Source: the human T2T-CHM13v2.0 reference genome, Homo sapiens
Assembly: GCF_009914755.1 (NCBI RefSeq)
Contig: NC_060928.1
Direction: 5' to 3' (one strand)
DNA: 64,000 nt
Under the pieces are notes generated by a model. That model ran no database searches. It was not told where the DNA came from and saw nothing but the letters and a program-made list of their open reading frames with translations. Each line of letters opens with the position of its first letter. Within the stretch, counting starts at the first letter, position 1. The translations under genes were made by a program, and so were the position numbers. Below are positions 3,650 to 60,100 of the stretch, in pieces.

Positions 3650-4370
3650 GGAGTGAGTATTTCTGTATGCCAAGCACTATTCCAGATATTGAAAATCCTG
3701 GGATAAATGAGACAAAGACTCTAGAAGGTCTTATAGTTATATTAATTATTTGTTTATAAAAATAATTATAAAAGTAATATGATATAGTAAATGCTTCAAC
3801 AAGTAATTATTACAGCATGATTAAATGCTTCAAATGAGCTGTGAGTCAAATGCTGTGGCATTCAGAAAGAAAGATATTTGTCCTGGGTCTTAAAAGCAGT
3901 AAGAATTTTCCAGGTCTTAAAAGAAATAAGAATTTGTGGGATGGTGGGGTGAGGACTGCTAAGGGGAGCATATGGAGGAGAAAACAAACTATTGTGGGTA
4001 GAGGAGCCAGTTAGAAGAAAAACCAGTAGTGATAGAGTGATGCATTGTGTTGGGAAAGTTTTGGCTGACAGAGAAGGCACTTAAGTGTCAGTTAAACAAG
4101 TTGAGATTATAGTTGGGGTCAGATCATACAGACTGTCAATCCCAAACATAGGAAGTCAGGCTCTGTCCTATAAGCACAGGGAAATATTGGACTCTTTAAT
4201 GCAAAAATAAGCCATTATTTTATTTTTGAATAATAATTTTTCTGATCATGAGAGAGGAAAAACATAATAGGAGACTAATTGGGAGAGCTTGCAATAGTCC
4301 AGGTAAGAGGATGTGAGATGAATGAAGTGAAGGGCGATTGCACTGAACATAAATGCAACAGTCTAGAGTT
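3650..4370 (-). mobile_element. L2 LINE fragment
   Basis: GAGTATTTCTGTATGCCAAGCACTATTCCAGATATTG (reverse L2 3' end) followed by purine-rich L2-like body (GCAATAGTCCAGGTAAGAG). Confidence 0.6.
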
Positions 4371-5329: not shown

Positions 5330-5486
5330 AGAAAGACAACTATACCAGGCAAAATGCACAAGAATATGTCCAAGATAAAATTAATATTAGGGAATAGTCT
5401 AATATTAATACTCATGGCAACAAACAAAAATTATGAAACAAAAAGGCAGAAATGAAACAAAAATAATTAGACATGTATAGAACCAA
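5330..5486 (+). mobile_element. Ancient L1/HAL1 ORF1-like fragment, 5' part (interrupted by L1MA)
   Basis: A-rich sequence that joins 12000-12280 once the L1MA and Alu are removed. Confidence 0.4.
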
Positions 5487-5489
5487 ACG

Positions 5490-11983
<6,494 letters not shown>

Positions 11984-36962: not shown

Positions 36963-38274
36963 TATTCTAACTTACTATTTTTAAAAAATTAAAATATGTA
37001 TTTTCATCTGTTGAAGTAACAAACATCCACACACTTTTATTTCCTAGTCTCTTTAGTCAGACCCACAAAATGTAATATTTTAATAAAAGACATTAAGAGT
37101 GAATTCTAGGGCGATGCCAGTTAATTAATAATACTTAATCTTTTACCTTTATTTAAAAATAATTCTCTAGGAGTTTGTGTACTATACAGAATAAATGACA
37201 GACAGTCAAAACTTTCGGTGAGACTGATTGACTACAATAGGTATTATCCATTTAATTATCCATAACATATCGGTTGTGCATTTACTATTTCCAGTAATCT
37301 AATTTCTGGCTAAGCAATCTCTCTAACATTATGACAAGAAAATATTTAAGATGAAGTAAAAGTAACACTGAAAAATACAAAAATAAGCTATCGTCTATTG
37401 CTGCCGGATACAATATGATGAAATACTGATTTTAAAAGAAATATTCTGGAATCATGACAGGAAATGTATTTTATATATCTTAAACTCAAGTCTGTAAAAG
37501 CTAGAATGGGTACACAGAATTGGTATGGTAAGTGGGTCCTGCAGCTGTGTTGGCTCCACAAATGCTTTGCATGTGTTGTTCTTGAAGAGCAAATAAAAGA
37601 GAAACCCCCTCATTTTTCAAGGGTATGGGAATATGTTTCTTTTTTTCATTTTAATAATGGTACCAGATAGGATTCCCATTCTATTTTCTTAAAATATTTG
37701 AAACAGTAAGTAGACACTTCAACTTGAAGACACAGCTGTTCAGACGATTAGGCACAAAAGAAGCCCAACAATATTCTCAAAGTGAAATTGCAATTGTAAT
37801 TATGTGAATGTTAGCTACTGGAATTATAAACATGGGGCCCCAGGAGGAAAACTGGGAAGCTGCCAACTTCATTTTCTGAAACTATTCACATATATCACAA
37901 AGAAACGTACACTTTTCACCCTGCTCTGCTTATTGGCATGCAAACCATCTCCTTGCTCTCTGTTTGAAGAGCTGTTCTTGCTTCTCTTGCTTCTTCTAGT
38001 CAAAGGTGGAAGTCAGGTGGCTGGAAGTTGCTTAAATGATTTCCTCTCATCTGCCCATAATGAACAGCTGCAGTAAATTGCCCAACATCATTTTGAATAT
38101 GCATAAACCAATGAGCAGCTCAGATTTTTTAATGTAACTTTATATTCTTGGCTATTCCGGTGTTTGCATTGTTCATTTTTAAGTCATTTAAAAATTGATA
38201 CAAATCAAATTATTGTTGCAGTTTTATACTAAAAAAAAGACTATTATTATTACAGGACCATTGAGATATGTTTT

Positions 38275-40616
38275 TAAAAAATTATTATTATACTTTAAGT
38301 TCTGGGATACATGTGCAGAACATGCAGGTTTTTTACATAGGTATACACGTGCCATGGTGGTTTGATGCACCCATCACCCCATCATCTACACTAGGTATTT
38401 CTCCTAATGCTATCCCTCCCCTAGTGCCCCAGCCCCCGACAGACCCCTGTGTGTGATGTTCCCCTCCTTGTGTCCGTGGGTTCTCATTGTTCAACTCCCA
38501 CTTATGAGTGAGAACATGCAGTGTTTGGTTTTCTGTTCCTGTGTTAGTTTGCTAAGAATGATGGTTTCCAGCTTGATCCATGTCACTGCAAAGGACATGA
38601 ACTCATCCTTTTTTATGGCTGCATAGTATTCCATGGTGTATATGTACCACGTTTTCTTTATCCGGTCTATCACTGATGGACATTTGGGATGGTTCCAAGT
38701 CTTTGCTATTGTGAACAGTGCTGCAATAAACATACATGTGCATGTGTCTTTATAGTAGAATGATTTATAATCCTTTGGGTGTATACCCAATAATGGAGTT
38801 GCTGGGTCAAATGGTACTTCTGGCTCTAGATCCTTGAGGAATCACCACACTGTCTTCCATAATGGTTGAACTAATGTACACTCCCACCAACAGTGTAAAA
38901 CTGTTCCTATTACTCCACATCCTTTCCAGCATCAGTTGTTTCCTGACTTTTTAATGATCACCATTCTAACTAGTGTGAGATGGTATCTCATTGTGGTTTT
39001 GACTTGCATTTCTCTAGTGACCTGTGATGATGAGCTTTTTTTCATATGTTTGTTGGCCACATAAATGTCTTCTTTTGAGAGGTGTCTGTTCATATCCTTT
39101 GCATACTTTTTGATAAGTTATTTGTTTTTTTTTTCTTGTAAATTTGTTTAAGTTCCTTGTAGATTCTGGATATTAGCCCATTGCCAGATGGATAGATGCA
39201 ACAATTTACTCCCATTCTATAGGTTGCCTGTTCACGCTGATGATAGTTTCTTTTGCTGTGCAGAAGTTCTTTAGTTTAATTAGATCCCATTTGTCAGTTT
39301 TGGCTTTTGTTGCAATTGCTTTTGGTGTTTTAGTCATGAAGTCTTTGCCCATGCCTATGTACTGAATGGTATTGCCTAGGTTTTCTTCTAGGGTTTTTAT
39401 GGTTTTAGGTCTTATGTTTAAGTCTTCAATCCATCTTAAGTTGATTTTTGTATAAGGTGTAAGGAAGGGGTCCAGTTTCAGTTTTCTGCATATCGCTAGC
39501 CAGTTTTCTCAACACCATTTGTTAAATAGGGAATCCTTTCCCCATTGCTTTTTTTTGTCAGGTTTGTCAAAGATCAGATGGTTGTAGATGTGTGGAATTA
39601 TTTCTGAGGCCTCTTTTCTGTTCTATTGGTCTATATCTCTGTTTTGGTACCAGTACCATGCTGTTTTGGTTACTGTAACCTTGTAATATAGTTTGAAATC
39701 AGGTAGCATGATGCCTCCAGCTTTGTCCTTTTTGCTTAGGATTGTCTTTGCTAGATGGGCTCTTTTTTGGGTTCCATATAAAATTTATAGTAGTTTTTTC
39801 TAATTCTGTGAAAAAAGTCGATGGTAGCTTGATGGGGATATCATTGAATCTATAAATTACATTGGGCAGGATGGCCATTTTCATGATATTGATTCTTCCT
39901 ATCCATGAGCATAGAACGTTTTCCATTGGTTTGTGTCCTCTCAAATAATTTCCTTGAGCTCTGGTTTGTACTTCTCCTTGAAGAGGTCCTTCACATCCTT
40001 TGTAAGATGTATGCCTAGGTATTTTATTCTCTTTGTAGCAATTGTGAATGGGAGTTCACTCATGATTTGGCTCTCTGATTGTCTATTATTGGTGTGTAGC
40101 AATGCTTGTGATTTTTGCACATTGATTTTGTATCCTGAGACTTTGCTGAAGTTGCTTATCAGCTTAAGGAGATTTTGGGCTGAGACGATGGGGTTTTCTA
40201 GGTATACAATCATGTCATCTTCAAACAGGGACAATTTGACTTCTTCTCTTCCTATTTGAATATGCTTTATTTCTTTATCTTGCCTGATTGCCCTGGCCAG
40301 AACTCCCAATACTATGTTGAATAGGGGTGGTGAGAGAGGACATCCTTGTCTTGTGCTGTTTTTCAAAGGGAATGCTTCCAGCTTTTACCAATTCACTGTG
40401 ATATTGGCTGTGGGTTTGCCATAAATAGCTCTTATTATTTTGAGGTACATTCCATCAATGCCTAGTTTATTGAGAGTTTTTAGCATGAAGCAGTGTTGAA
40501 TTTTTTCGAAGGTCTTTTCTGCATCTATTGAGATAATCATCTGGTTTTTGTCATTGGTTTTGTTTATGTTATGGATTACATTTATTGATTTGTGTATGTT
40601 TTACCAGCCTTGCATC
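38275..40616 (-). mobile_element. L1PA7-like 3' 2.3 kb (ORF2 C-terminal part, 3'UTR, tail)
   Basis: ORF2 peptides [33 protein letters not shown]; 3'UTR TAAGTTCTGGGATACATGTGCAG. Confidence 0.95.
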
Positions 40617-40639
40617 ATTGATACAAAAGCTTAAACCAG

Positions 40640-40860
40640 GAAAAGTGTTCTGGGGGTGAGCAGTGAATTAGAATGCTGAAGAACTTGTCCTTTCTCATCA
40701 CTGTTTCACTTGTGAACTTTAGTAAGTGGTTTCCTCTCTATTTCATCCTCTCTCAGATAGTAAGAATAGTGCTTATCATAACCATATCAATAGGGAAGTG
40801 TGAAAGACCTTGAAACTGTAGCATACTATCCACTTATAATTAGTGACAAGTGTGTTGAAA
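40640..40860 (+). mobile_element. MIR-like fragment
   Basis: CTTGTGAACTTTAGTAAGTGGTTTCCTCTCTATTTCATCCTCT. Confidence 0.4.
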
Positions 40861-41199
40861 AGAAAGTACTGAATCTTAAAGACATAGACAAGATGGAAGC
40901 TGAATTCAAAAGATTGCCAGTTGGTCAGGGCCCCTTCTACTGCTGCATTTCATAATAGTAGCAGCTGTCTATTGACATTTATATTTTCCACAGTAAAAAT
41001 GAAAGACAAGACTCTAATCATAGAAATAGTGTTTTTCTCTACACAGAATAAAAGACCATGCCAAAAGTTAAAGATATACAGACTTTATGAAATATTTAAT
41101 TTCAAATTTTGGCTTTAGTTCTGAATCAAACTAAGTATGGAACTTCATATACCAAAGGGACTTTTTCCCCTAATAACAACTGCCTAACTACCATATGCT

Positions 41200-42660
41200 A
41201 TATTAATACTGGGCAGTTAAAAATATAAAATCGAAAGCAAAACTATAATATCCTATAAGAGTATACTTATGACTTCCAGAAAAGATGAAATTATTCAACA
41301 AAATACAAAAGTGCAAACTGCAGAGGTAAAGTTTAAAATGCATTAAGATGACTATCAGAAATTCTGATTTCTAACCATCAAAATCAATGAAAAAAAAACA
41401 AAAGAACTACACACTGAGAGATGATATTTTGTAATACACATAAGCAGCAAAGGATTAATCAATATCCAAAAATAAATAAAAAGAATCTTATAATTTGCAA
41501 GAGAAAGAATAACTCACTTGAAATAATAGGGAAAAATCTTAATAGGTACTTCACAGAAAGAAAATCTGAACAGCCAATAAAAGATGCTCAATCTAATAAA
41601 TAATCAAGTAAATAAAAATGAAAACCACATTGAGAGATCATGTATAACTCACTATAGTGGGAAAAAAACAGTTTGTTAATATCTTGTGTTGTTGAGGATG
41701 AGGGTTAACCAGATCACTTATACAAGACTTCTCATGGATACAAAATAATATAACTACTCTGAAAAATAAATTGGCATAATCTATACACTCTTTTGTGTTT
41801 CTTTTTATTTTCTATAAATTAAGAAAAATATTTACTTTGTATTTCTGCATGAATTTATTTCAAGGTAACCAAATAAGTGATAAGGAAAAGTTTTTCTGTA
41901 TAGAAGAATTCAAGCTAACAAATTCAGGATAAATGATAGAATTATAGAGTCACTATTATTCAACCCTTAGTAAAAATATTTAGGTAACTTTCAATAATAG
42001 ATGCTAATAACATTGGGTGAAATTTTATGGGAAATCTTGTAATGAAGTAATTAGACTGACACTATCTGAACCTACTGGTTGAGCTCAGGAGATCTAAAAT
42101 TGGGGCAATAGGCAGTATAGAGCATCACATATTAAAATTTCTTACTCAGAAAAAAATTATACTACATTTAATCAAATCAGTTTACAGGGAATAGAGGAAT
42201 ATGGATAGTAGAACAGACAGCATGATTTTACTGGAGCAGTAAAATCCAGAATGTGAGACATTTTAGGATAATGTTTTTAAGGACCTGGTTTCTCCAACAA
42301 ATCAATAGCATAGAAGATAAAAAGAATGGCGGGGACTGTTGTAAAGGAAAAAAGATGCAAGAGGTCAAGATACAGTGTGAGAAAACATAATGTCACTTGA
42401 AATTTGGTCAAACCAACTATAAGAAATAGACAGTCAATGAAATGTTAATAAAGGTGAAAATAAAATGTGAAGTAGGTATCAGATGACATTAAGGAAAGTA
42501 TTTTGTTAGGCATAATAATGTCAGGATGTTTTCTTTAAAAATGTTACAAGACAAAGATCTATGCTGAAGTGTTTGCAGATGAAATGAGATATCTTACATT
42601 TGCTTTAACAAAACAAAACTGTTAATATAATTAAGTGTTTTAATAAATTATTAGTTATAA
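41200..42660 (+). mobile_element. Old L1M fragments (L1ME ORF2 end ~41200-41790; L1MC-like 3' end ~41860-42660)
   Basis: AAATCTTAATAGGTACTTCACAGAAAG...AAAGATGCTCAA; AATCCAGAATGTGAGACATTT...CCTGGTTTCTCCAACAAATCAAT. Confidence 0.6.
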
Positions 42661-43090
42661 GGGTGGCGATGGAAAACAAGAGGTCTAGGATAACATCTGG
42701 ATTTTGCCTTTGGTTTCAAGGGTGGTGCCATTTGCCAAGACAGGTGACACAGAAGCAACAGGAGGCTTCAGAAATTAAAATGACTTTAATTTTGAACATG
42801 AGTTTTAAGAGTCACAAAGGGCTCGATTGAGTTTGGAAACTATAAATTATTGTAGCAGCCATCCACAGTTTTGTGAAATTTCCTAAAAGTTCCTTCAGCA
42901 GTACCCAGGGATGTAGCTACAAGTGCAGTGAAAAAAATGTCTGGATCAATCTACCTTGGAATGTTAGTAGGTCAGATACAACAAAAGACCAAAAAGACAT
43001 GGGAAATGGGGATTGTTGCAAGAGAGAACTTAAATGATATGTTATCCTAGGTTGGATAGGAAAGTGCTAACTCCGTTAAAGTGATGATGG
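42660..43090 (-). mobile_element. L2 fragment (continues at 44483-44960)
   Basis: GGTGGTGCCATTTGCCAAGACAGG...TTTTGAACATGAG. Confidence 0.5.
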
Positions 43091-43091
43091 G

Positions 43092-43393
43092 AGCCGGGCA
43101 CGGTGGCTCACACCTGTAATCCCAGCACTTTGAGAGACTGAGGCAGGTGGATCACCTGAGGTCAGGAGTTTGAAACCAGCCTGACCAATATGGCAAAATC
43201 CCGTCTCTACTGAAAATACAAAAATTAATCGGATGTGGTTGCGTGCTCCTGTTGTCCCAGCTACTCAGGAGGCTGCAACAAGAGAATTGCTTGAACCCAG
43301 GAGTCGGAGGTTGCAGTGAGCCCAGATTGCTCCATTGCACTCTAGCCTGGGTGACAGAGCACAACTCCATCTCAAAAAAAAAAAAAAAAAAAA
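43092..43393 (+). mobile_element. Alu (AluSx/Sq-like); A tail interrupted by an LTR
   Basis: TSD AAAGTGATGATGGG (43078-43091) / AAAGTGTTGATGGG (44469-44482) encloses Alu plus LTR. Confidence 0.95.
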
Positions 43394-44462
43394 TGTTGCG
43401 GGAAGTCAGGAACCCTGAACGGAGGGACCGGCTGAAGCCATGTCAGAAGAACATAAATTGTGAAGATTTCATAGACATTTATTAGTTTCCCAAATTAATA
43501 CTTTTATAATTTCTTACACCTGTCTTTACTGCAATCTCTGAACATAAATTGTGAAGATTTAATGGACAATTATCACTTCCCCAGTCAATACTCTTGTGAT
43601 TTCCTATGCCTATCTTTACGTTAATCTCTTAATCTCATCATCTTCATAAGCTGAGGATGAATGTCGCCTCAGGACCCTGTGATAATTGCATTAACTGCAC
43701 AAATTGTTTAAACGATATGAAATCTGGGCACCTTGAAAAAAGAACAGGACAACAGCAATGTTCAGGGAACAAGGGAGATAACCTTAAACTCTGGCTGCCT
43801 GTGGGCCAGGCAGAACAGAGCCATATTTCTCTTCTTTCAAAAGCAAATAGGAGAAATACTGCTGAATTCTTTTTCTCAGCAAGGAACATCCCTGAGAAAG
43901 AGAATGCGTCCCTAAGGGGAGGCCTCTGAAATGGCCGCTTTGGTGACAGCCGTCTTTTACAGTTGTGGATAAGGGATAAAATAAGCCCCAGTCTCCCATA
44001 GCGCTCTCAGGCTTATTAGGACGAGGAAATTCCCACTTAAAAAATTTTGGTCAGACTGGTTGTCTGCTCTCAAACCCTGTCTCCTGATAAGATGTTATCA
44101 ATGACAATGCGTGCCCGAAACTTCATTAGCAATTTTAATTTCGCCCTGGTCCTGTGGTCCTGTGATCTCGCCCTGCCTCCATTTGCCTTGTGATATTTTA
44201 TTACCTTGTGAAGCATGTGATCTCTGTGACCCACACCCTATTCGTACACTCCTTCCCCTTTTGAAAATCACTAATAAAAATTTGCTGGTTTTACGGCTCA
44301 GGGGGCATCACAGAACCAGCCGACGTGTGATGTCTCCCCTGGACACCCAGCTTTAAAATTTCTCTCTTTTGTACTCTGTCCCTTTATTTCTCAGGCCAGG
44401 TGACACTTAAAGAAAATGGAAAAGAACCTATGTGAAATATTGGGTGTGAATTTCCCCCGAAA
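43394..44462 (+). mobile_element. MER11C-like solo LTR (HERV-K11/HML-8)
   Basis: Starts TGTTGCGGGAAGTCAGG, internal 91-bp repeat GAACATAAATTGTGAAGATTT, AATAAA at ~44273, ends GAATTTCCCCCGA; ~1.07 kb. Confidence 0.9.
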
Positions 44463-45163
44463 AAAAAAAAAGTGTTGATGGGTTAGGAAGTCTTCAGATA
44501 ATATCAGTAAGGGTGGATAGAGGATAATAGGCATCTCAGGGGAGGTAAGTATTGTTATAATCATCAAATAATGATCTGAATACAGCAGTGGAGGGTTAAA
44601 GCAAAATGCTGCTACTTAATTTGGGGGTTCTATAGTTAAGTAAGAGGGAATAAAAAGTTTTAGCTTGCATGCTATTTAGAAGGGAGTAGAAGAACCCATC
44701 TGTGAATAGATTGGCAGTGTAGAGTAGATGCTAGGTGATAGATAAGGGTTCTAGAATAAAAGGCAATGGTCAGTAGCAAATAGAATGTAAGTGTGAAAGA
44801 ATGGGTGTCCTGGAATAGGACAGAGATGAGAGAAATGAGAGTAAGCTGGTCAGGGGCCAGCACTTTGGCTGATGACCAAAGACAAGTGGAGGAAAACATG
44901 TTAGATGAGCTGCTCTTGAGCCTTATGGGCAGACCAAGTCCCAAGTGCTGCAAAAGCCTCATGAGATTAGCAAATTTTAGGTGCTACTTATCATTGAAAA
45001 GGAATGTCACTGGGAATTTACTTATCTTGTCTCTGAAGAATCCTTTTTCTCAGGCTGTTAAAGGAAAAAAAAAAACAACACATCAATGCTTATTCCTTAT
45101 TTTATGATTTATTTTTATATTAATAATCAGTTGTATCAAATTCCTATTATATATACTTTGCCA

Positions 45164-46194
45164 TTTTTAAAATTTTTTTATTATTATTTCTTAATTATAA
45201 TTTAAGTTCTGGGATACATGTGCAAAATGTGCAGGTTTGTTACATACGTATACACGTGCCATGGTTGTTTGATGCACCCATCAACCCATCATCTACATTA
45301 GGTATTTCTCCTAATGCTATCCCTCCTTCCTAGTCCCCCACCCCCTGACAGGCACAGTGTTTGATGTTCCCCTCCCTGTGTCCATGTGTTCTCATTGTTC
45401 AACCCCCACTTATGAGTGAGAACATGTGGTGTTTGGTTTCCTGTTCCTGTGTTAGTTTGCAGAGAATGATGGTTTCCAGCTTCATCCATGTCCCTGCAAA
45501 GGACATGAACTCATCCTTTTTTATGGCTGCATAGTATTCCATGGTATATATGTGCCACATTTTCTTTATCCAGTCTATCATTGATGGACATTTGGGTTGG
45601 TTCCAAGTCTTTGCTATGGTGAACAGTGCTGCAATAGACATACGTGTGCATGTGTCCTTATAGTAGAATTATTTATAATCCTTTGGGCATATACCCAGTA
45701 ATGGGATTGCTGGGCCAAATAGTGGTTCTGGTTCTAGATCCTTGAGGAATCGCCACACTGTCTTCCACAATGGTTGAACTAAGGTACACTCCCACCAACA
45801 GTGTAAAACCTTTCCTATTTCTCCACATTCTCTCCAGCATCCGTTGTTTACTGACGTTTTAATGATTGTGATTCTATCTGTGGTGAGATGGTATCTCACT
45901 GTGGTTTTGATTTGCATTTCTCTAATGACCTGTAATTATGAGTTTTTTTTCATATGTTTGTTGGCCGCATAATGTCTTCTTTTGAGAAGTGTCTGTTCAT
46001 ACCCTTTGCCCACTTTTTGATAAGTCGTTTGTTTTGTTCTCATAAATTTGTTTAAGTTCCTTGTAGATTCTGGATATTAGCCCTTTGTCAGATGAATAGA
46101 TTGCAAAATTTTTCTCCCATCTGTAGGTTGCCTGTTCATGCTGATGACAGTTTCTTTTGCTGTGCAGAAGCTCTTTAGTTTAGTTAGATTCCCA
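45164..46194 (-). mobile_element. L1PA7-like 3' 1.0 kb (second 3' end)
   Basis: Tail, 3'UTR and ORF2 C-terminal peptides (KTWNQPKCPSMIDWIKKMWHIYTMEYY). Confidence 0.95.
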
Positions 46195-46278
46195 CCAGCA
46201 GGGCCCTGGGTTTCAAGCACAAAACTGGGCGGCTGTTTGGGCAGACACCAAGCTAGCTGGAGGAGTTTTTTTATACCC
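46193..46278 (+). repeat. Inverted copy of L1 5'UTR segment 46817-46904
   Basis: CAGGGCCCTGGGTTTCAAGCACAAAAC...CTAGCTGGAGGAGTTTTTTTATACCC is the diverged reverse complement of 46817-46904. Confidence 0.9.
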
Positions 46279-47236
46279 ACTTGAAGAGGCAGTCTTAGCA
46301 GAGCTCGAGCACTATGCTGGGAGATCCATTGCTCTCTTCAGATCCAGCAGGCAGGAACGTTTGAGTCTGCTGAAGCTGCACCCATGGATGCCCCTTCTCC
46401 CAGATGCTCTCTCTCAGGGAGAGAGGATCTTTATCTATAAGCCCATGACTGGGGTTGCTGCCTTTCTTTCAGAGATGCCCTGCCCAGAGAGGAGGAATCT
46501 AGAGAGGCAGTGGCTTTACCAAGCTGCAGTGGGTTCCACCCAGTTCGAACTTCCTGGCAGCTTTGTTTACACTGTGAGTGGAAAACTGCCTACTCAAGCC
46601 TCAGTAATGGTGGATGCCCCTCTCCCCACCAAGCTCAAGCATCCCAGGTTGACTTTAGACTGCTGTGCTGGCAGCAAGAGTTTCAAGCCAGTGGATCTTA
46701 GCTTGCTGGGCTCCCTGGGGGTGGGATCGGCTGAACTAGACCACTTGGTTACCTGGTTCAGCCCCCTTTCCAGGGGAGTGAATGGTTCTGCCTGGCTGGT
46801 GTTCTAGGCACCACTGGGGTATGAAAAAAAACTCCTGCAGCTAGCTCTGTGTCTGCCCAAATGGCCACCTGGTTTTGTGCTTGAAACCCAGGGCCCTGGT
46901 GGTGTAGGCACCCAAGGGAATCTCTGTTCTGTGGATTGCGAAGACCTTGGGAAAAGCGTAGTTTCTGGGCCAGAATGCACCATTCCTCATGGCATGGTCC
47001 CTCGCAGCTTCCTTTGGCTAGGGGAGGGAGTTCTCTGACCCCTTGCACTTCCCGGGTGAGGCAACGCCTCATCCTGCTTCAGCTCACCCTCTGTGGGCTG
47101 CACACACTGTCTAATCAGTCTCAATGAGATGAGCTGGGTACCTCAGTTAGAAATGCAGAAATCACCTACCTTCTGCATTTGTCTTGCTGGGAACTGCAGA
47201 CCGGAGCTGTTTCTATTTGGCCATCTTGCCAGCCAC
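46275..47236 (-). mobile_element. L1PA7-like 5'UTR with intact 5' end
   Basis: Ends ...GGCCATCTTGCCAGCCAC (YY1-site region AAGATGGCC on the minus strand), immediately followed by TSD TGAGATATGTTTT. Confidence 0.9.
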
Positions 47237-47722
47237 TGAGATATGTTTTAATTTATTTTCTGTATATTTTGGAAATTCCTAGCAACCTTTGGCAAAAGCT
47301 AGAGAAAATTTTCCTTTTCAAAGTTCCAAAAACATTTTATTTAGTCTCTTTTATGATTACTCCTCACAATAATTAATCCTATTTTGGGCTGTTGATGATA
47401 GTCATTTGCTCTTGTCAAATAATGTATTCCTTTCCACATTTTCTTCTCTATTGTTAGGACAGTACTAAAACTTTGTAACTTTTCATTAGTTTTCACTTTT
47501 TTTACTCAGTTCTTCTCTGTGTCCAGCTGTACATTTGTTGTATCCTTTAATGTTTTCAAAACATTTTAATTTTTCAAAATTATTCATTCTCTAGATGTGT
47601 CTTATTATTGTCTTAAATTTCCTCCTAAATTCTACTTTATTGCTTTTAGTCTAACTTGAGATATTTTCATATAATGTTTTTGAACAAAAGGAAAAAACAT
47701 TGGTTATCATTTGCATTTAAGG

Positions 47723-49119: not shown

Positions 49120-51154
49120 ATATGTCTCAAATTTATTTTAATTTTCCCATCACATAAGTCACTACCTTTGTTCAGCCATTCTTTATCCCCATAAGAAAAG
49201 TCATAGTGTTTGAATTATTTGTTTTTTTATGTTCTCTTTTCAATTTTATCTTTTATTGATCTACAAAGATGTACATATTCTCGGGTATTTGTGATAATTT
49301 AATATAGTCACATAATTTGTAAAGATCAAATCAGTGTAATTGTGATATTCATCATCTTAAATCTTTATCTTTTCTTTATGCTAGAAACTTTTGAATTATT
49401 TTCTGCCAGCTACTTTGAAATATACAACAGATTATTATAAACTATAGTCACAGTACTGATCTATGAAATACTAGGTCTTATTTCTTCTATCAAACTGTGT
49501 GTTGTATTCATTAATCAACCTCTCTTTATTCCCCTCACTTGCCCCTCAACCTTTCCTGTCCTCTGGTCACCACCAATCTACTGTCTTCCTTCATGAGACC
49601 CACTTTTTTTGTTCCCATATGTGAACATGCAATATTTGTCTTTTTGTATTTGGCTTATATCATGACTTCCAGTTCTATCCATGCTGCTACAAATGACAGG
49701 ATTCATTCTTTTTTAGGCTGAATAATATTCTATTTGTATATATACAATTTCTTTATCCACTCATTCATTGATGGGCACTTAGGTTGATTCTATATTTTGG
49801 CTGTTGTGAATAGTGCTGCAATAAACATAGGAGTGTAGATAGCTCTTTGATATATTGATTTCCTTTATTTTTGATGTATACTCAGTAGTGTAATTGCTGA
49901 ATCATATGGAAATTCTTTTTTTAATTTTTTTAGGAACCTCCATATAGTTTTCCATACTGGCTGCATTAATTTACACTCCCACCAACAATATATAAGGATT
50001 CCTCTTTTTCTACATTCTTGTCAGCATTCGTTGTTCCTGTCTTTTTGATAAAAGCCATTTTAACTGGGGTGAAATGATATCTCATTGTGGTTTTCATTCT
50101 CATTTCTCTGATTATTAGTGATGTTGAGCTTTTTATCTGTTGGCCCTCTGTATTTCGTCTTTTGGGAAATATCTATTCAGTTCTTTTGTTTGTTTTTAAA
50201 TAAATTTTTTTTTTTTGCTAATTGTTCAAGCTCCTTACATAGTCTGGTTATTAATTTCTTGTCAGATGGATAGGTTGTAAATATTTTCTCCCATTCTGTG
50301 GATTGTCTCTTCACTTTGTACATGTTTTCCCGCTGTGCAGAAGCTTTTTAGTTTGATATAATCCTGTTTGTCTATTGTTGCCTACTTTGCCTGTGCTTTT
50401 AATGTTTTGCACAAAAATTCATTTCCCAGACCAATATCCTGGAGCATTTCCCCAAAGTTTTTTGTTAGTAGTTTTACAATTTGAGATCTTAAGACTTCAG
50501 TCTGTAATCTATTTTGATTTAATTTTTGTGTGAAAGGTGAAGATCTAGTTTTATTCTTCTGTGTTGATTATCCAGTTTCTCCAGCTCCATTTATTAAAGA
50601 GACTGTTCATTCCCCATTGTTTGTTATTGGAAACTTTGTTGAAAATGAGTTGGCTGTAAATATGTGGATTTATTTCTGGGTTCTCTATTCCACTCCTTTA
50701 GTATATATGTCTGTTTTTAATGCCAGTATTAAGCTTATTTGGTTATTATAGCTTTGTAGAATATTTTGAATTCAAAGGATGTGATGCCTCCAGCTTTGTT
50801 CTTTTTGCTCAGGAAAAGACTTTGACTACTTACTTTGACTACTCAAAGTCTTCTGGGGTTCCATATAAATTTTAGGATTTTTTTCTACTTCTGTGAAGCA
50901 TGACATTGTTTTTTTGATAGGGATTGCACTGAATCTATAAAGTGCTTTGGGTAGAATTGTCATTTTAACAATATTAATTCCTTAAATCCACAAACATGGA
51001 ATATCTTTCCAATTTTTTTGTGTCTTCTTCAATTCCTTTCACCAGTGTTTTGTAGTTCTTCTTGTATGGCTCTTCCAATTCCTTGACTAAATCAGTTCCT
51101 AGGTATTTTATATTCTTTGTAGCTCTTGTAAATAAAATTACTTAATTTCTTTTT

Positions 51155-51486: not shown

Positions 51487-52239
51487 AGTTACTTGATTTC
51501 TTTTTCAGATTGTTTGCTATTGGCATATATAAATGCCACTGATTTTCATATATTGATTTTGTGTCTTGCAAATTTACTGAATTCATTTATCAGTTCTAAC
51601 AGTTTTTCTTTTTTTTTTTTTTGGTAGAGTCTTTAGGTTTTTCTACGTATAAGATTATGTCATTTGCAAACAGGGCTAATTTGATTTTTTCCTTTTCAAT
51701 TAGAATGTCCTTCATTTATTTGTCTTGCCTCACTGCTCTGGTGAGAACTTCTAATATTATGCTGAATATAAGTGGTGAAAGTGGGCAACCTTGTCTTGTT
51801 GCTGATCTTAGAGGAAAGGCTTTCCATTTTCCCCTCTTCAGTACAATGATAGCTGTGGGTTTATTGCCTTCATTATTTTGAGTTTCATTCCCTCCACTCC
51901 CAACTCATTAAGGGTTTTTTATTATAAAAAAACCCTTTTTTATTAGTCTTGCTAGCAGTCTGTCGATTTTGTTGTTATAAAAAAAAAACCCGTAGTGCGT
52001 CGTGAATTTTATGGAATTTTTTTTCATTTTTTAAAAATATACTTTAAGTTCTAGGGTACTTGTGCACAACGTGCAGGCTTGTTACATAGGTATACATGTG
52101 CCATGTTGGTTTGCTGAACCCATTAACTCGTCATTTACATTAGGTATTTCTCCTAATGCTATCCATCCTCTTGCCCCCCTCCCCATGACAGACCCCCATG
52201 TGTGATGTTCCCCGCCCTATGTCCAAGTGTTCTCATTGT

Positions 52240-56097
<3,858 letters not shown>

Positions 56098-56160
56098 TAT
56101 GATGTTAGCTGGTTATTTTGCCCGTTAGTTGATGCAGTTTCTTCCTAGCCTCGATGATCT

Positions 56161-57185
56161 TTACAATTTGGCATGTTTTTGCAGTGGCTGGTACTGGTGT
56201 TTACTTTTCATGTTTAGTGCTTCTTTCAGGAGCTCTTTTAGGGCAGGCCTGGTGGTGACAAAATCTCTCAGCATTTGCTTGTCTGTAAAGGATTTTATTT
56301 CCCCTTCACTTATGAAGCATGGTTTGGCTGGATATGAAATTCTGGGTTGAAAATTCTTTTCTTTAATAATGTTGAATATTGGCCCCCACTCTCTTCTGGC
56401 TTATAGAGTTTCTCCCAAGTGATCTGCTATTAGTCTGATGGTCTTCCCTTTGTGGGTAACCCGACCTTTCTCTCTGGCTGCCCTTAACATTTTTTCCCTC
56501 ATTTCAACCTTGATGAATCTGACAATTATGTGTCTTGGGGTTGCTCTTCTCGAGGAGTATCTTTGTGGTGTTCTCCATATTTCCTGAATTTGAATGTTGG
56601 CGTGCCTTGCTAGGTTGCAGAAGTTCTCCTGGATAATATCCTGAAGAGTGTTTTCCAAATTGGTTCCATTCTCCCCGTCACTTTCACGTACACTGATCAA
56701 ACGAAGATTTGGTCTTTTCACATTGTCCCATATTTCTTGGAGTTTTTTTCATTTCTTTTTACTCTTTTTTTCTCTAAACTTCTCCTCTTGCTTTATTTTA
56801 TTAATTTTATATTCAATCATTGATACACATTATTCAACTTGATCGAATCGGCTATTGAAGCTTATGCATGCATCACGTAGTTCTCTTGCCATGTTTTCAG
56901 CTCCATCATGTCATTTAAGGTCTTTTCTACACTGTTTATTCTAGTTAGCCATTCATCTAATCTTTTTTCAAGGTTTTTAGCTTCCTTGCAATGTGTTTGA
57001 ACATCCTCCTTTAGCTTGGAGAAGTTTGTTATTACCGACCTTCTGAAGCCTACTTCTATCAGCTCATCAAAGTCATTCTCCATCCAGCTTTGTTGCATTG
57101 CTGGTGAGGAGCTGTGATCCTTTGGACCAGAAGAGGTGCTTTGGTTTTTAGAATTTTCAGCTTTTCTCCTCTGATTTCTCCCCAT
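56161..57185 (-). pseudogene. Disrupted L1 ORF1
   Basis: MGRNQRRKAENSKNQS..., KRPNLRLI, RATPRHIIVRF in separate frames. Confidence 0.95.
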
Positions 57186-60100
57186 CTTTGTGGTTTTATC
57201 TATCTTTGGTCTTTGATGCTGATGCCTACAGATGGGGTTTTGGTGTGGATGTCCTTTTTGTTGATGTTGCTGCTATTCCTTTCTGTTTGTTAGTTTTCCT
57301 TCTAAGTATCAGGTCCCTCAGCTGCAGGTCTGTTGGAGTTTGCTGGAGGTCTACTCCAGACCCTGTTTACCTGGGTATCACCAGTGGAGGCTGCAGAACA
57401 GCAAATATTGCAGAGCAGCAAATATTGCTGCCAGATCCTTCCTCTGGAAGCTTCCTCCCAGAGGGGCACCCACTTGTATGAGTTGGCCCCTTCTGGGAGG
57501 TGTCTCCCAGTTAGGTTACACAGGGATCAGTGACCCACTTGAGGAGGCAGTCTGTCCGTTCTCAGAGCTCAAATGCTGTGGTGGGAGAACCACTGCTCTC
57601 TTCAGAGCTGTCAGACAGGGACATTTAAGTCTGCAGAAGTTTCTGCTGCCTTTTGTTCAGCTATGCCCTGCCCCCAGAGGTGGGGTCTACAGAGGCAGCA
57701 GGTCTTGCAGAGCTGTAGTGGGCTGCACCCAGTTTGAGCTTCCCCATCCACTATGTTTACCCACTCAAGTCTCAGCAATGGCAGACACCCCTCACACTGC
57801 CAGGCTGCTGCCTTGCAGGTCAATCTCAGACTCCTGCACTAGCAGTGAGCAAGGCTCCACGGGTGTGGGACCTGCTGAGGCAGGCGCAGGATATAATCTC
57901 TTCATGTGTTGTTTGCTATGATCATTGGAAAAGCACAGTATGTGGGTGGGAGTGTCCCTATTTTCCAGGTACAGTCTGTCATGACTTCCCTTTGCTAGGA
58001 AAGGGAAATCCCCCAACCCCTTGTGCTTCTCAGGTGAGGCAATGCCCTGCCCTGCTTCAGCTCACCCTCCATGGGCTGCACCCACTGTCTGACCAGTCCC
58101 AATGAGATGAACCATACCTCAGTTGGAAATGCAGAAATCACTGTCTTCTGCATCAATCACACTGGGAGCTGCAGACCCAAGCTGTTCCTATTCGGCCATC
58201 TTGGAATGGAATCTTTTATGGGATTTTTATAGCATCTAATGAAATTATCATATTGTTTTTGTCCTTGGTTCTGTTAGTATGATGTATCACATCTCAATTT
58301 TCATATTTTGAACCATCCTTGCATTTCTAGAATGAATTGCACTAAATCATAGTGAATGATCTTTTTAACATGTTGTATTTTTGAATTCAGTCTGCTATTA
58401 TTTTGTTGAGGATTTTGTATCTATATTTATCAATGATAATGGCCTGTAGTTTTATTTTTGTTATATCCTTTTCTGGTTTTGATATCAGGATAATGCTGGC
58501 CTGGTAGAATAAGTTTAGAAGTATTCCCTCCTCTTCAATTTTTTTGAAAAGTTTGGTAGGATTGGTGTTAGTTCTTTAAATTTTTGGCAAACTCAACTAC
58601 AAAGCTATCAGATTCTGGGCTTTTCTCTGAGGAAAGACTTTTTTATTATAGCTTCAATTTGATTACTCATTATTGGTTTGTTGATGTTTTCTACTTCTTC
58701 ATGATTCAATCTCGGTAGGTTTTATGTGTCCAGGAATTTACTCATTTCTGCTAGGTTTTCCAATGTATTGGCACACAGTTGTTCATAATAGTCTATGGTG
58801 ATTATTTGTATTTCTGTGGTCTAAGTTGTTATGTCTCCTTTTTTATTTCTGGTTTTATTTATTTGGGTCCTCTCTCTTCTTATGTTAGTATAGTTAGTTT
58901 GTTAATTTTATTTATCTTTTCAAAAAACCAACTTTTCATTTTGTTGATATTCTGTATTTTTTTAGTGTCAATTTTCTTTATTTCTGCTCTGAAGTTTATT
59001 ACTTTTTTCCTTCTGCTAATTTGGGGTTTGGCTTGTTCTTGCTTTTCTAAATTCTTTGAGGTTCATCATTAGGTTGTTTATTTGAAGTTTTTCTGCTTTT
59101 TTGATGTAGGTGTTTATTGCTATAAACTTCCCTCTTAGCACTGCTCTTACTGTATCCCATAGATTTGGTATGTTGTATTTCCATTTTTCATTAGTTTCAA
59201 GAATATTTTAAAATTTTCTTCTTTATTTCTTCATTCACCCATTGGTCATTGAAGAGCATGTTGTTTGATTTCCATGTGTTTGTGTATTTTCCAAAGTTCC
59301 TCTTGATATTGATTTCTTGTTTTATTATATTATGATCTGAAAACATACTTGATATGATTTATGCTTTTGACTGCATTATTTTCTGTTGTTTCTCCTACTT
59401 TCATACTCAGATGTGGGAAGTTTTTCATATTTACTAAGTTGTATGCAACAACATTTAATTGTGATTGCTATGTATTTTTGTGGGGATAATTAATAGGTGT
59501 GAGTGTGTGTTTACATAAAAATAATGTCATCTTTCCATAGCTAAAGCTTGAGATTTTATTTTTTCAAAGATGAAAGAAAAAAATATATCAGTCCCCAGTT
59601 TGTTCTCCTCCTCTCAAATCATATCATTATGATACAATAATATCATAAAAACTTCAAGAATTGGCATTGACGGAAAAAATAAAACAAATCTATATTTTTT
59701 CATAAATATCTAGTGCAAACTTATGAGGAAAGATATTCACTATTTTTTTACTTTAATTTTCCCACTTTTTTCACTGTTATCTCACAATGTAATGCCTTGC
59801 TAGTGGTTGTAAAGTTTATTTTATAGCAGACACAAGAGTTAACTTTTGTCTGAAATTCTTCATGTGTGGCATTAGTTTAGTCCAAAGTCTACATTTAAAT
59901 AGATAAATTCCATTTATAAAAACTGCATTTCAAGCCAAAATTGTTTTCAGGGTATTTGACTGCAGTGTGCTGCTGAAAGCCAGTCTTCAGGGGATTCCTC
60001 CTTTTTCTTTCTGTCTTTTCTACTTGGGAAATCCCCATTTCAGTAAATAGTTACTATTTAAGGATTCTCTTATATTTCCTTTTTTAAATTTATCATCAAT

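What the first reader, a model, noticed from the sequence alone, without database searches (positions are those of the whole stretch)
38262..47249. A single TSD brackets a ~9 kb composite L1 with two 3' ends and ~4.5 kb of captured genomic DNA
Seen: TGAGATATGTTTT occurs exactly at 38262-38274 (against the tail of the left L1 piece) and at 47237-47249 (against the L1 5' end). On the minus strand the right copy reads TT|AAAACATATCTCA, the canonical L1 endonuclease site. I found no convincing individual TSD for either L1 piece. Element order on the minus strand is 5'UTR, 1 kb L1 3' end with tail, ~4.5 kb of MIR/L1M/L2/Alu/LTR-containing DNA (45163 to 40617, no poly(A) at its end), then 2.3 kb L1 3' end with tail. 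Established: L1 mobilises 3' flanks by read-through and its RT can switch templates. Inference: this was one retrotransposition event carrying an internal transduction, either by switching between a normal and a read-through transcript of one source L1, or by read-through to a second downstream L1. Standard repeat annotation would list unrelated L1 fragments.
Basis: partly seen in the sequence, partly recalled or inferred. Interest (0 to 1): 0.85.

Follow-up and report, generated by a model that had tools for sequence, protein, structure and literature searches.

The report
L1 insertion carrying copied intron DNA
An ancient L1 jumping-gene insertion in an intron of the human CFAP299 gene holds, between two L1 tail ends, a 3.5 kb copy of another intron of the same gene, most likely because the L1 copying enzyme hopped between templates in one event.

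Summary
The 13-mer TGAGATATGTTTT sits flush against the tail of the left L1 piece and against nucleotide 1 of an L1 5'UTR. Neither L1 piece has a target-site duplication (TSD) of its own.

The interior is not old local DNA. It is a 3.5 kb copy, 91-93% identical, of chr4:84200239-84203738, about 0.21 Mb downstream. The homology stops flush at both L1 junctions. The extra 1.07 kb is an LTR-like repeat that is absent from the source and so came later.

It is the start of a CFAP299 intron, about 75 nt past a splice donor, and it was copied in the gene's sense orientation.

An 86-nt inverted 5'UTR piece sits at a further junction. At least three of the four internal junctions show 3-5 nt microhomology.

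Best reading (0.55): one target-primed reverse transcription with serial template switches, L1 RNA to CFAP299 pre-mRNA to L1 RNA. Rivals are read-through from a lost source L1 (0.15) and a DNA-templated copy in cis (0.2). This is a new variant of known L1 chimeric insertions, of moderate interest.

The parts
38262..38274 (-). 3' copy of the target-site duplication (minus strand AAAACATATCTCA; the AAAA may belong to the poly(A))
38275..40616 (-). L1 piece 1: the 3' terminal 2.34 kb of an L1 (about nt 4122 to the end of a 6.46 kb full-length relative), with the tail ...AATAATAATAATTTTTTA
   Evidence: 87.2% identity to the window's full-length L1; 87-91% to three full-length relatives; tail
40617..40619 (-). 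3-nt filler (AAT on the minus strand) at the junction between captured DNA and L1 piece 1. The captured DNA ends in ATC; a same-position L1 in the window and the source both read ATCCC here
40620..43393 (-). captured DNA, 3' part: copy of G000:C4:84200929-84203738 (+). It includes an Alu (43093-43393) that the source also has
   Evidence: 89.4% over 2812 columns; 91.2% over aligned bases outside the Alu; Alu alignment
43394..44460 (.). later insertion of a 1.07 kb high-copy LTR-like repeat into the A/T-rich tail of the captured Alu; absent from the source locus; contains a 90-bp tandem repeat at 43449-43619. It was not part of the original event
   Evidence: 39 other genomic copies at 89-92% over this stretch alone; boundaries and the empty site in the source
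44461..45163 (-). captured DNA, 5' part: copy of G000:C4:84200243-84200938 (+). The AAAA at 45164-45167 is shared with the L1 tail (microhomology)
   Evidence: 91.0% over 708 columns; 92.6% over aligned bases; junction
45164..46192 (-). L1 piece 2: the 3' terminal 1.0 kb of an L1 (about nt 5449 to the end), with the tail ...AATAATAATAAAAAAATTTTAAAAA
   Evidence: 89.65% identity to piece 1 over 1005 columns
46193..46278 (+). 86-nt copy of L1 5'UTR nt ~335-420 in the opposite orientation to the rest of the element; junction microhomologies TGG and TGGGT
   Evidence: 87.5% identity to 46817-46904 in inverted orientation; 81-95% to the opposite strand of 39 other L1 5'UTRs
46279..47236 (-). L1 5'UTR from nucleotide 1 to about nt 976. 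ORF1 starts 326-360 nt further on in the 3 of 9 relatives examined that keep an ORF1-like N-terminal frame, so the break lies inside the 5'UTR
   Evidence: 82-86% identity to 39 other L1 5'UTRs, all ending at this break
47237..47249 (-). 5' copy of the target-site duplication, preceded on the minus strand by TT (endonuclease site TT|AAAA)

Best explanation
One endonuclease-dependent L1 insertion, originally 7.9 kb, was made in an intron of CFAP299 by a single run of target-primed reverse transcription in which the growing cDNA changed template several times.

The proposed order of synthesis is:
1. The nicked target ...ATGTTTT-3' primed on an L1 RNA, and 2.34 kb was copied.
2. The cDNA end moved to an unspliced CFAP299 transcript at about +3574 of the next intron of the main transcript. 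That intron starts about 0.21 Mb downstream of the target, and the RNA was probably nascent or nuclear and therefore close by.
3. 3.5 kb of that intron was copied, up to the last A-run before the splice donor (about +75).
4. The TTTT end of the cDNA paired with the A-run at the 3' end of a second L1 RNA, and 1.0 kb of it was copied.
5. After a short 86-nt stretch copied from an antisense 5'UTR template, synthesis finished on L1 5'UTR nt ~976 to nt 1.
6. The end joined the other side of the staggered break, which gave the 9-13 bp TSD.

A solo-LTR-like repeat later landed inside the captured Alu.

Shown: the anatomy, the source locus, the flush ends of homology, the microhomologies, the single TSD and the matching ages. 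Inferred: that the middle template was RNA rather than DNA, and that all switches happened during one synthesis.
For: - Single TSD: it is flush with nt 1 of the 5'UTR and with the distal tail, at a TT|AAAA site. Chance is about 1e-6 per position pair. Neither piece has a TSD of its own.
- Only one other copy of the interior exists in the genome, at C4:84200239-84203738 on the opposite strand. Its homology ends within 0-4 nt of both L1 junctions. The outer flanks of the 9 kb unit are unique in the genome. The interior is therefore imported, not ancestral local DNA.
- Direction of copying: the source lies in its native setting. It starts 74-78 nt after the donor AAG|GTAAAT of the CFAP299 exon matched at 84200019-84200165 (PF14713 positions 101-156, 65.7 bits).
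- Matching ages: non-CpG divergence is 7.5% and 8.3% for captured DNA against its source, and 8.9% for L1 piece 1 against piece 2.
- All RNA-like parts share one polarity. The captured stretch is in the sense orientation of CFAP299 (+ strand, six PF14713 exon matches).
- Target and source lie in the same transcription unit, 205-214 kb apart (my arithmetic). For a template drawn at random from the genome this would have a chance of about 1.4e-4.
- Junctions: AAAA is shared between the L1 tail and the source. TGG and TGGGT lie at the two junctions of the 86-nt piece. ATC plus a 3-nt filler lies at the fourth.
- No L1 adjoins the source.
- The rearranged junction is private: 0 of 39 other scored L1 5'UTR copies cross it.
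- Precedent: in L1-expressing cells, long reads showed 9 insertions built from two RNA transcripts. Same-orientation cases were ascribed to template switching or RNA ligation, with microhomology or untemplated bases at the junctions (PMC11702581, section 7 read whole).
- CFAP299 mRNA is reported as predominantly testis-expressed in mouse, in spermatogonia and primary spermatocytes (passage in PMC9226698). The template would therefore be present in germ cells.
Against: - Nothing in the sequence proves an RNA template for the middle part. It has no splice junction and no poly(A).
- There is no A-to-G excess that would mark RNA editing: A>G 42 against G>A 38, and T>C 58 against C>T 58, source to copy.
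- Sense orientation has even odds under a DNA template.
- The two L1 3' ends are not each other's nearest relatives. Piece 1 ranks 13th among the 39 other copies scored for piece 2, out of 15,300 first-look candidates. A shared source RNA is therefore not shown.
- The A(n)T(n)A(n) tail that both pieces carry also occurs in 4 of 11 close relatives and in the window's third L1. It marks a lineage, not one source.
- The source boundary CCT|AAAA is also an acceptable L1 endonuclease site. A former L1 at that spot, or a second nick there, would explain that junction equally well.
- The deletion with the 86-nt inverted filler could instead be a later DNA repair event.
- No outgroup genome could be consulted, so intermediate states are not excluded by direct observation.
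Confidence: 0.55

Rival explanations
1. The reader's model (a), 3' transduction plus one switch. A now-absent, never-fixed L1 sat in the sense orientation at about +75 of the CFAP299 intron. Its read-through transcript (L1, tail, intron) served as the second template after reverse transcription had started on a normal L1 RNA.
For: The source boundary reads CCT|AAAATGC, so the bottom strand reads TTTT/AG, which is close to the L1 nick site. The captured DNA would then begin with that element's 3' TSD. L1 piece 2 with its tail directly precedes the captured DNA, as in a transduction. This model needs one template switch fewer between RNAs.
Against: There is no L1 at or next to the source in this assembly, and the site looks like an intact empty site only about 75 nt from a splice donor. 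The captured DNA ends without a poly(A), at an internal L1 ORF2 position. No other genomic copy carries the same rearranged L1 junction: 0 of 39 scored. The model has to assume an element that inserted, was active and was then lost.
Confidence: 0.15
2. DNA-templated copy in cis. The 3' end of the first L1 cDNA (or another end of the break) annealed by microhomology to single-stranded genomic DNA 0.21 Mb away. There ORF2p or a repair polymerase copied 3.5 kb before synthesis returned to L1 RNA. A variant has two L1 nicks, at the target and at the source, whose intermediates were joined.
For: Source and target are 205-214 kb apart on one chromosome. Junctions show microhomology or a short filler. 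There is no RNA-specific mark. [quoted passage not shown] The source boundary fits an L1 nick site.
Against: The published cases were ascribed to processing of the reciprocal DNA end, that is, at the edge of the insert. Here the copy lies between two L1 cDNA stretches of the same polarity, so synthesis would have to go RNA, DNA, RNA. A DNA template gives no reason for the sense orientation. It also gives no reason for the start about 75 nt after a splice donor, which by my post hoc arithmetic has a chance of about 6e-4 within the 642 kb gene.
Confidence: 0.2
3. Two independent L1 insertions flank old local DNA, and the 13-mer is a chance match. The paralog would then be an unrelated duplication.
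For: The subfamily was very active and L1 pieces are dense in this window. The AAAA part of the repeat is favoured by the nick-site preference.
Against: Only 3 of about 3,000,000 random position pairs share a 13-mer. Neither piece has its own TSD. The homology to the paralog ends exactly at both L1 junctions, and the outer flanks have no paralog. Two insertions would therefore have had to hit both ends of a duplicated block to the base.
Confidence: 0.02
4. An ordinary full-length L1 inserted with this TSD and was rebuilt later by DNA-level events: a deletion with a templated filler, and insertion of a second L1 end plus the duplicated intron DNA.
For: The 86-nt inverted copy of a stretch about 550 nt away resembles the templated inserts of error-prone end joining. 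The 5'UTR and both 3' pieces fit one subfamily.
Against: The last 1.0 kb of L1 is present twice, which one element cannot supply. A nested second insertion would need its own TSD or poly(A) at the captured end, and neither is there. The ages of all parts match.
Confidence: 0.06

Closest known systems
L1 template-switch chimeric retrocopies: bipartite and tripartite chimeras such as U6/L1 and mRNA/L1, and double template jumps in LINE reverse transcription. Sources: PMC2104539 (title and start of abstract seen in the listing); Law and Burns 2025/2026 (abstract and passages); the earlier papers by Buzdin and colleagues are recalled, not read here.
   Same: Several RNA-derived parts lie head to tail in one polarity under a single TSD at a TT|AAAA site. 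The 3' part is a 5'-truncated L1 with a tail. The junctions carry microhomology or a few extra bases.
   Different: The foreign part lies in the middle, between two L1 3' ends, not at the 5' end. It is 3.5 kb of unspliced intron rather than a small RNA or spliced exons. It comes from the same gene as the target. There are at least four junctions. The locus was not found in the 4 supplementary files held for Law and Burns: no CFAP299 or C4orf22, and no chr4 position starting 805 to 809. The hg38 position I searched for is my own estimate from recall.
Non-canonical L1 insertions seen by long reads in L1-expressing cells (PMC11702581, section 7 read whole)
   Same: Insertions built from two RNA transcripts in the same orientation (9 cases), and insertions with sequence templated from DNA near the integration site (3 cases); microhomology or untemplated bases at the junctions.
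   Different: Those are fresh somatic events in culture, and the text read describes two parts. This one is an old, fixed germline event with five parts and a very long middle part.
L1 3' transduction (Moran 1999; Goodier 2000; Pickeral 2000; all recalled, not read here)
   Same: Non-L1 DNA follows an L1 tail inside the TSD, and a diverged copy of it exists elsewhere in the genome.
   Different: The donor locus has no L1 upstream of the copied DNA. The copied DNA has no poly(A) of its own and runs into the middle of a second L1.
Twin priming / 5'-inverted L1 insertions (Ostertag and Kazazian 2001, recalled)
   Same: One short stretch of 86 nt lies in the opposite orientation, with microhomology at its ends.
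   Different: The large parts all share one orientation. The inverted stretch is an internal filler, not the 5' portion of the insert.

Membership tests
Endonuclease-dependent L1 insertion (target-primed reverse transcription) | Direct repeat of target DNA (TSD) flush with both ends of the insert | tested here: met
   13-mer (9 bases unambiguous) at 38262-38274 and 47237-47249; controls
Endonuclease-dependent L1 insertion (target-primed reverse transcription) | Target resembles the nick site TT|AAAA | tested here: met
   The minus strand reads AAATT|AAAACATATCTCA. The consensus itself is established knowledge, recalled.
Endonuclease-dependent L1 insertion (target-primed reverse transcription) | L1 3' end with an A-rich tail at the 3' TSD | tested here: met
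   The tail reads ...GTATAATAATAATTTTTTA followed by the AAAA of the TSD. It is short, but the terminal A-run after the T-run is equally short (3-7 bases) in the 4 tail-motif relatives.
L1 3' transduction | At the donor locus the transduced DNA lies directly 3' of the source L1 | tested here: not met
   No L1 adjoins 84200239. The nearest same-orientation L1 fragment ends 4.15 kb upstream. Only this one assembly was examined.
L1 3' transduction | The transduced DNA ends at a downstream poly(A) site with its own A tail | tested here: not met
   The captured DNA ends ...GCTTTTGTATC, then a 3-nt filler, then the ORF2 region of L1.
L1 3' transduction | The transduced DNA follows the L1 tail inside the TSD | tested here: met
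   The tail of piece 2 is directly followed by the captured DNA.
L1 template-switch chimeric retrocopy | Parts from different templates lie in one polarity under one TSD, with no TSD or poly(A) between all of them | tested here: met
L1 template-switch chimeric retrocopy | The foreign part corresponds to the transcribed (sense) strand of a transcription unit | tested here: met
   The source lies inside CFAP299 on its sense strand (and the hub's gene table).
L1 template-switch chimeric retrocopy | The foreign part was copied from RNA | not testable with these tools
   There is no splice junction, poly(A) or editing signature in it. Expression data were not on hand.
L1 template-switch chimeric retrocopy | Microhomology or a few untemplated bases at the internal junctions | tested here: met
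   AAAA; TGG and TGGGT; ATC plus the filler AAT
Twin-primed (5'-inverted) L1 | The 5' portion of the insert is inverted relative to the 3' portion | tested here: not met
   The 5'UTR and both 3' ends are collinear on the minus strand; only 86 nt are inverted.

The most novel reading that the evidence does not exclude
An L1 reverse transcriptase working at a nick inside an active gene can pick up that gene's own unspliced, locally held pre-mRNA as a template. It then writes kilobases of intron back into the gene as an inverted intragenic duplication, sandwiched between L1 pieces. The start of the copy about 75 nt from a splice donor would then mark where the enzyme met a splicing complex or an RNA end. 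This would be an RNA-mediated route to duplicating non-exonic DNA in cis. Standard repeat annotation cannot see it.
Probability: 0.45. Interest if true: 0.6.

Novelty: new variant of a known kind. Interest (0 to 1): 0.5.

Why it matters
If the reading is right, it shows three things in a fixed germline event:
- L1 reverse transcription can chain at least four template changes.
- It can copy 3.5 kb of an unspliced host intron.
- It can take that template from the very gene it is inserting into.

This extends the known chimeras, in which small RNAs or spliced exons sit at the 5' end of an L1, to a sandwich form. It also gives a concrete and testable prediction: the middle parts of such sandwiches should be sense-strand copies of nearby transcribed DNA.

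In practical terms, repeat annotation lists such events as unrelated L1 fragments plus a small duplication. They are therefore missed in counts of L1-driven duplication.

This is a single case. The general mechanisms, template switching and non-canonical insertions, are already documented, so it refines the picture rather than changes it.

Tried and rejected
- RNA-editing signature: I looked for an A-to-G excess in the copy relative to the source, mainly in the shared Alu. None was found (42 against 38), so this says nothing on RNA versus DNA.
- Nearest-neighbour test: piece 1 is only the 13th best of 39 scored relatives of piece 2. This neither supports nor excludes one source RNA.
- Tail motif: the A/T/A tail looked like a private marker of one source. 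It also occurs in 4 of 11 close relatives and in the third L1 of the window, so it is a lineage trait.
- Older repeat spanning the insertion site: I checked whether the outer flanks belong to one older repeat split by the insertion, which would have served as a stand-in for an outgroup. The left 600 bp has no other match in the genome. The first ~457 bp of the right flank has no listed match other than itself. No such test is possible.
- Splicing as the origin of the L1 tail/intron junction: rejected, because no AG precedes the source boundary.
- Downstream L1 at the source: none.
- Known RNA families in 38000-47500: none at gathering score.
- Outgroup genomes: none on hand.
- Repeat library: none on hand, so the names L1PA7, MIR, L2 and the LTR family remain unverified.
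- Literature searches for a described case of same-gene intron capture found none. Only the open-access library was searched, with those terms.

Full report
**Observation**

The 13-mer TGAGATATGTTTT occurs twice in the window and nowhere else, even with one mismatch allowed: at 38262-38274 and 47237-47249.
- Read on the minus strand, the right copy is preceded by TT (AAATT|AAAACATATCTCA). It is followed at once by GTGGCTGGCAAGATGGCCAAATAGAAACAGCTCCGG. Several other full-length L1 copies begin their homology at that very base: their matches start at query base 14, right after the 13-mer.
- The left copy follows the L1 3' end ...CCCAGAACTTAAAGTATAATAATAATTTTTTA.
- Four bases of the repeat (AAAA) could belong to the poly(A), so the TSD is 9 to 13 bp.
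- As a null, 3 of about 3,000,000 random position pairs of the real window share a 13-mer and 40 share a 9-mer.
- The flanks of each single L1 piece share only words of 5 and 6 bases. Random pairs of 40-mers have a mode of 5, and none of 1973 exceeds 10.

**Anatomy, on the minus strand, 5' to 3'**

Three full-length relatives with the same 5'UTR type served as rulers (L045-L047). In L045 the element is about 6.46 kb long.

| Window position | Part |
|---|---|
| 47236-46279 | L1 5'UTR, nt 1 to about 976 |
| 46278-46193 | 86 nt of 5'UTR nt ~420 to 335 in antisense |
| 46192-45164 | last 1.0 kb of L1 with the tail ...AATAATAATAAAAAAATTTTAAAAA |
| 45163-44461 and 43393-40620 | 3.5 kb of non-L1 DNA |
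| 40619-40617 | 3 filler bases |
| 40616-38275 | last 2.34 kb of L1 with its tail |

- The break at nt ~976 lies inside the 5'UTR. Of 9 relatives examined, the 3 that keep an ORF1-like N-terminal frame start it 326-360 nt further on.
- The stretch 43394-44460 is a separate 1.07 kb repeat. At least 39 other copies at 89-92% identity match that stretch alone, out of 2176 first-look candidates of which 40 were scored.
- This repeat lies in the T-run that is the tail of an antisense Alu, and the source locus lacks it. It therefore inserted later.
- From its ends and size it looks like a solo LTR. Its family name comes only from recall and was not tested.
- The original insert was 7.9 kb (my sum of the parts).

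**Where the middle part comes from**

A search of the window's own genome with 40617-43090 found one other full-length copy: C4:84201237-84203738 on the opposite strand, 90% identity over query bases 4-2474. The next best hit covered 236 bases at 71% (40 of 56 candidates scored).

Local alignment of the fetched region gives:
- 45167-44465 against 84200239-84200938, 91.0%;
- 43396-40620 against 84200929-84203738, 89.4%. This block includes the Alu, so the Alu was already there when the copy was made.

The homology ends flush at both L1 junctions.
- At the 5' side the window reads ...TTTTAAAAATGGCAAAG and the source reads CCTAAAATGCTAATG. The shared bases are AAAA.
- At the 3' side the window reads GCTTTTGTATC-AAT-GATGCAAGG, and the source continues GCTTTTATATCCCAAGG.

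The outer flanks of the 9 kb unit have no second copy. The left 600 bp matches only itself. No other match is listed for the first ~457 bp of the right flank; every listed hit lies at base 458 or beyond, where a common repeat begins.

So the interior is an imported copy whose limits are the L1 junctions. That is hard to reconcile with two independent L1 insertions into old local DNA.

**The source is not next to an L1**

In 84186001-84212000 the only L1 sequences are:
- a full-length element in the opposite orientation (84186004-84191574);
- a 362-bp 3' end in the same orientation (84195727-84196082), which stops 4.15 kb before the source.

Nothing L1-like follows 84203738. The 4.2 kb in between gave only Alu-type hits among the 40 scored candidates.

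**What the source is**

A scan of the genome with the Pfam family of CFAP299 (PF14713) gave six matches, all on the + strand of C4 from 83.67 to 84.29 Mb.
- One is at 84200019-84200165 (profile positions 101-156, 65.7 bits). It reads an open frame and ends in AAG|GTAAAT, a good donor site.
- The copied stretch begins 74-78 nt after that donor and runs to about +3574 of the intron.
- The next exon match is at 84274846, so this intron is about 75 kb long.
- The target site lies between the exon matches at 83913152-83913247 and 84200019, that is, in the preceding intron of the main transcript. The hub table lists no exon of that transcript in the window.
- The copy has the polarity of the L1 parts, and this equals the sense strand of CFAP299.
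- The A-run at which the copy starts is the first run of four or more A in the intron counted from the donor. The copied 3.5 kb holds 26 such runs. An enzyme moving 3' to 5' would meet this one last.
- By my own post hoc arithmetic, a breakpoint this close downstream of one of five donors in a 642 kb gene has a chance of about 6e-4. I treat this as suggestive of an RNA-level landmark. No mechanism is shown.

**Ages**

Non-CpG divergence:

| Comparison | Non-CpG divergence | Identity over aligned bases |
|---|---|---|
| Captured 5' part against source | 7.5% | 92.6% |
| Captured 3' part against source | 8.3% | 91.2% |
| L1 piece 1 against piece 2 | 8.9% | 89.8% |

These values fit one time of origin.

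Piece 1 is not the closest relative of piece 2. It ranks 13th of 39 other copies scored, at 1325 bits against a best of 1379, out of 15,300 candidates. The two pieces belong to one subfamily, but a common source RNA is not shown.

The odd A(n)T(n)A(n) tail of both pieces also occurs in 4 of the 11 closest relatives (L032, L034, L035, L036) and in the window's third L1. In those four relatives the final A-run is also only 3-7 bases long.

**Junctions**

At least three of the four internal junctions carry 3-5 bases of microhomology:
- AAAA, between the L1 tail and the intron;
- TGG and TGGGT, at the two sides of the 86-nt antisense piece;
- the fourth has ATC followed by a 3-base filler.

None of the 39 other L1 5'UTR copies scored crosses the 5'UTR break. 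All their matches end at query bases 972-975. The rearranged L1 is therefore private to this insertion.

**Mechanism**

The simplest account is one target-primed reverse transcription with serial template changes: L1 RNA, then CFAP299 pre-mRNA, then the 3' A-run of a second L1 RNA, then a short antisense 5'UTR template, then the 5'UTR to its first base.

What this account explains:
- the single TSD;
- the common polarity of the parts;
- the flush limits of homology;
- the microhomologies;
- the absence of an L1 at the source;
- the sense orientation;
- the fact that source and target lie in one gene 205-214 kb apart. Unspliced intron RNA exists only in the nucleus near its gene.

Supporting reports:
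- CFAP299 mRNA is reported as mainly testis-expressed in mouse, in spermatogonia and primary spermatocytes (passage in PMC9226698).
- Same-orientation insertions made of two RNA transcripts, with microhomology or untemplated bases, have been seen in L1-expressing cells (9 cases). So have 3 insertions with sequence templated from DNA near the integration site (PMC11702581, section 7).

What stays inferred:
- That the middle template was RNA. There is no editing signature, no splice junction and no poly(A).
- That the 86-nt piece and the internal deletion arose in the same synthesis rather than by later repair. An L1 antisense-promoter transcript as template for that piece is a speculation from recalled knowledge.

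**Rivals**

1. Read-through of a lost, never-fixed L1 at intron position +75, plus one switch (0.15). The boundary CCT|AAAA would suit an L1 nick. But the element must be assumed, the copied DNA has no poly(A), and no relative carries the same junction.
2. DNA-templated copying in cis, including two-nick intermediates (0.2). This explains the proximity and the microhomology. It does not explain the orientation or the position next to a donor, and it needs synthesis to go from RNA to DNA and back.
3. Later rebuilding of a plain full-length L1 (0.06). The doubled 1.0 kb 3' end and the missing TSD or poly(A) speak against it.
4. Chance (0.02).

**Comparison with what is known**

The event works like the L1 template-switch chimeras (U6/L1, mRNA/L1, tripartite chimeras).
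- The catalogue of Law and Burns concerns sequences at the 5' end of L1. I read its abstract, outline and passages.
[quoted passage not shown] The hg38 position is my estimate from recall, and long files may have been cut.
- Two text searches found no described case of same-gene intron capture.

The event fails two defining tests of 3' transduction: no source L1 at the donor, and no terminal poly(A). I file it as a new variant of a known kind. It is a five-part sandwich chimera with a 3.5 kb unspliced intron of the host gene in the middle.

**Limits**

- There were no outgroup genomes, no repeat library and no expression data.
- The genome search scores only the 40 best candidates per query.

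Noticed in passing
G000:C4:84200019-84200243 (source locus, locus L010): The copied intron stretch begins 74-78 nt after the splice donor of a CFAP299 exon, at the first run of four or more A in that intron. The chance is about 6e-4 by my post hoc arithmetic. This could reflect a roadblock, an RNA end or coincidence.
   Followed up: partly
window 40617-40622 and 38258-38266: The 3-base filler with its neighbours reads TCAATG on the minus strand. The same word spans the end of the TSD and the start of the 3' flank (CATATCTCAATGG). This may be a brief copy of target DNA, or it may be chance.
   Followed up: no
window 51990-58215, minus strand: A third, roughly full-length L1 (about 6.2 kb) lies in the same orientation 4.7 kb away. 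It has a different 5'UTR type (only 76-80% alike, in patches) and 86-87% identity to the two pieces. Its tail has the same T-run then A-run form.
   Followed up: partly
window 43093-43393 against G000:C4:84200945-84201240: The shared Alu differs far more between copy and source (83.5% identity, non-CpG divergence 12.4%) than the DNA around it (7.5-8.3%). There is no A-to-G bias, and part of the difference may be alignment at the tails.
   Followed up: partly
loci L032, L034, L035, L036 and window 52015-52040: A subset of this L1 subfamily carries a heritable tail of the form A-run, T-run, short A-run directly after the 3' end. This suggests a lineage whose source element passed on the start of its own tail.
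   Followed up: partly
window 9234-11312 and 49659-51133: Older L1 fragments, 66-70% identical to the pieces studied, lie elsewhere in the window. The first is in the opposite orientation.
   Followed up: no
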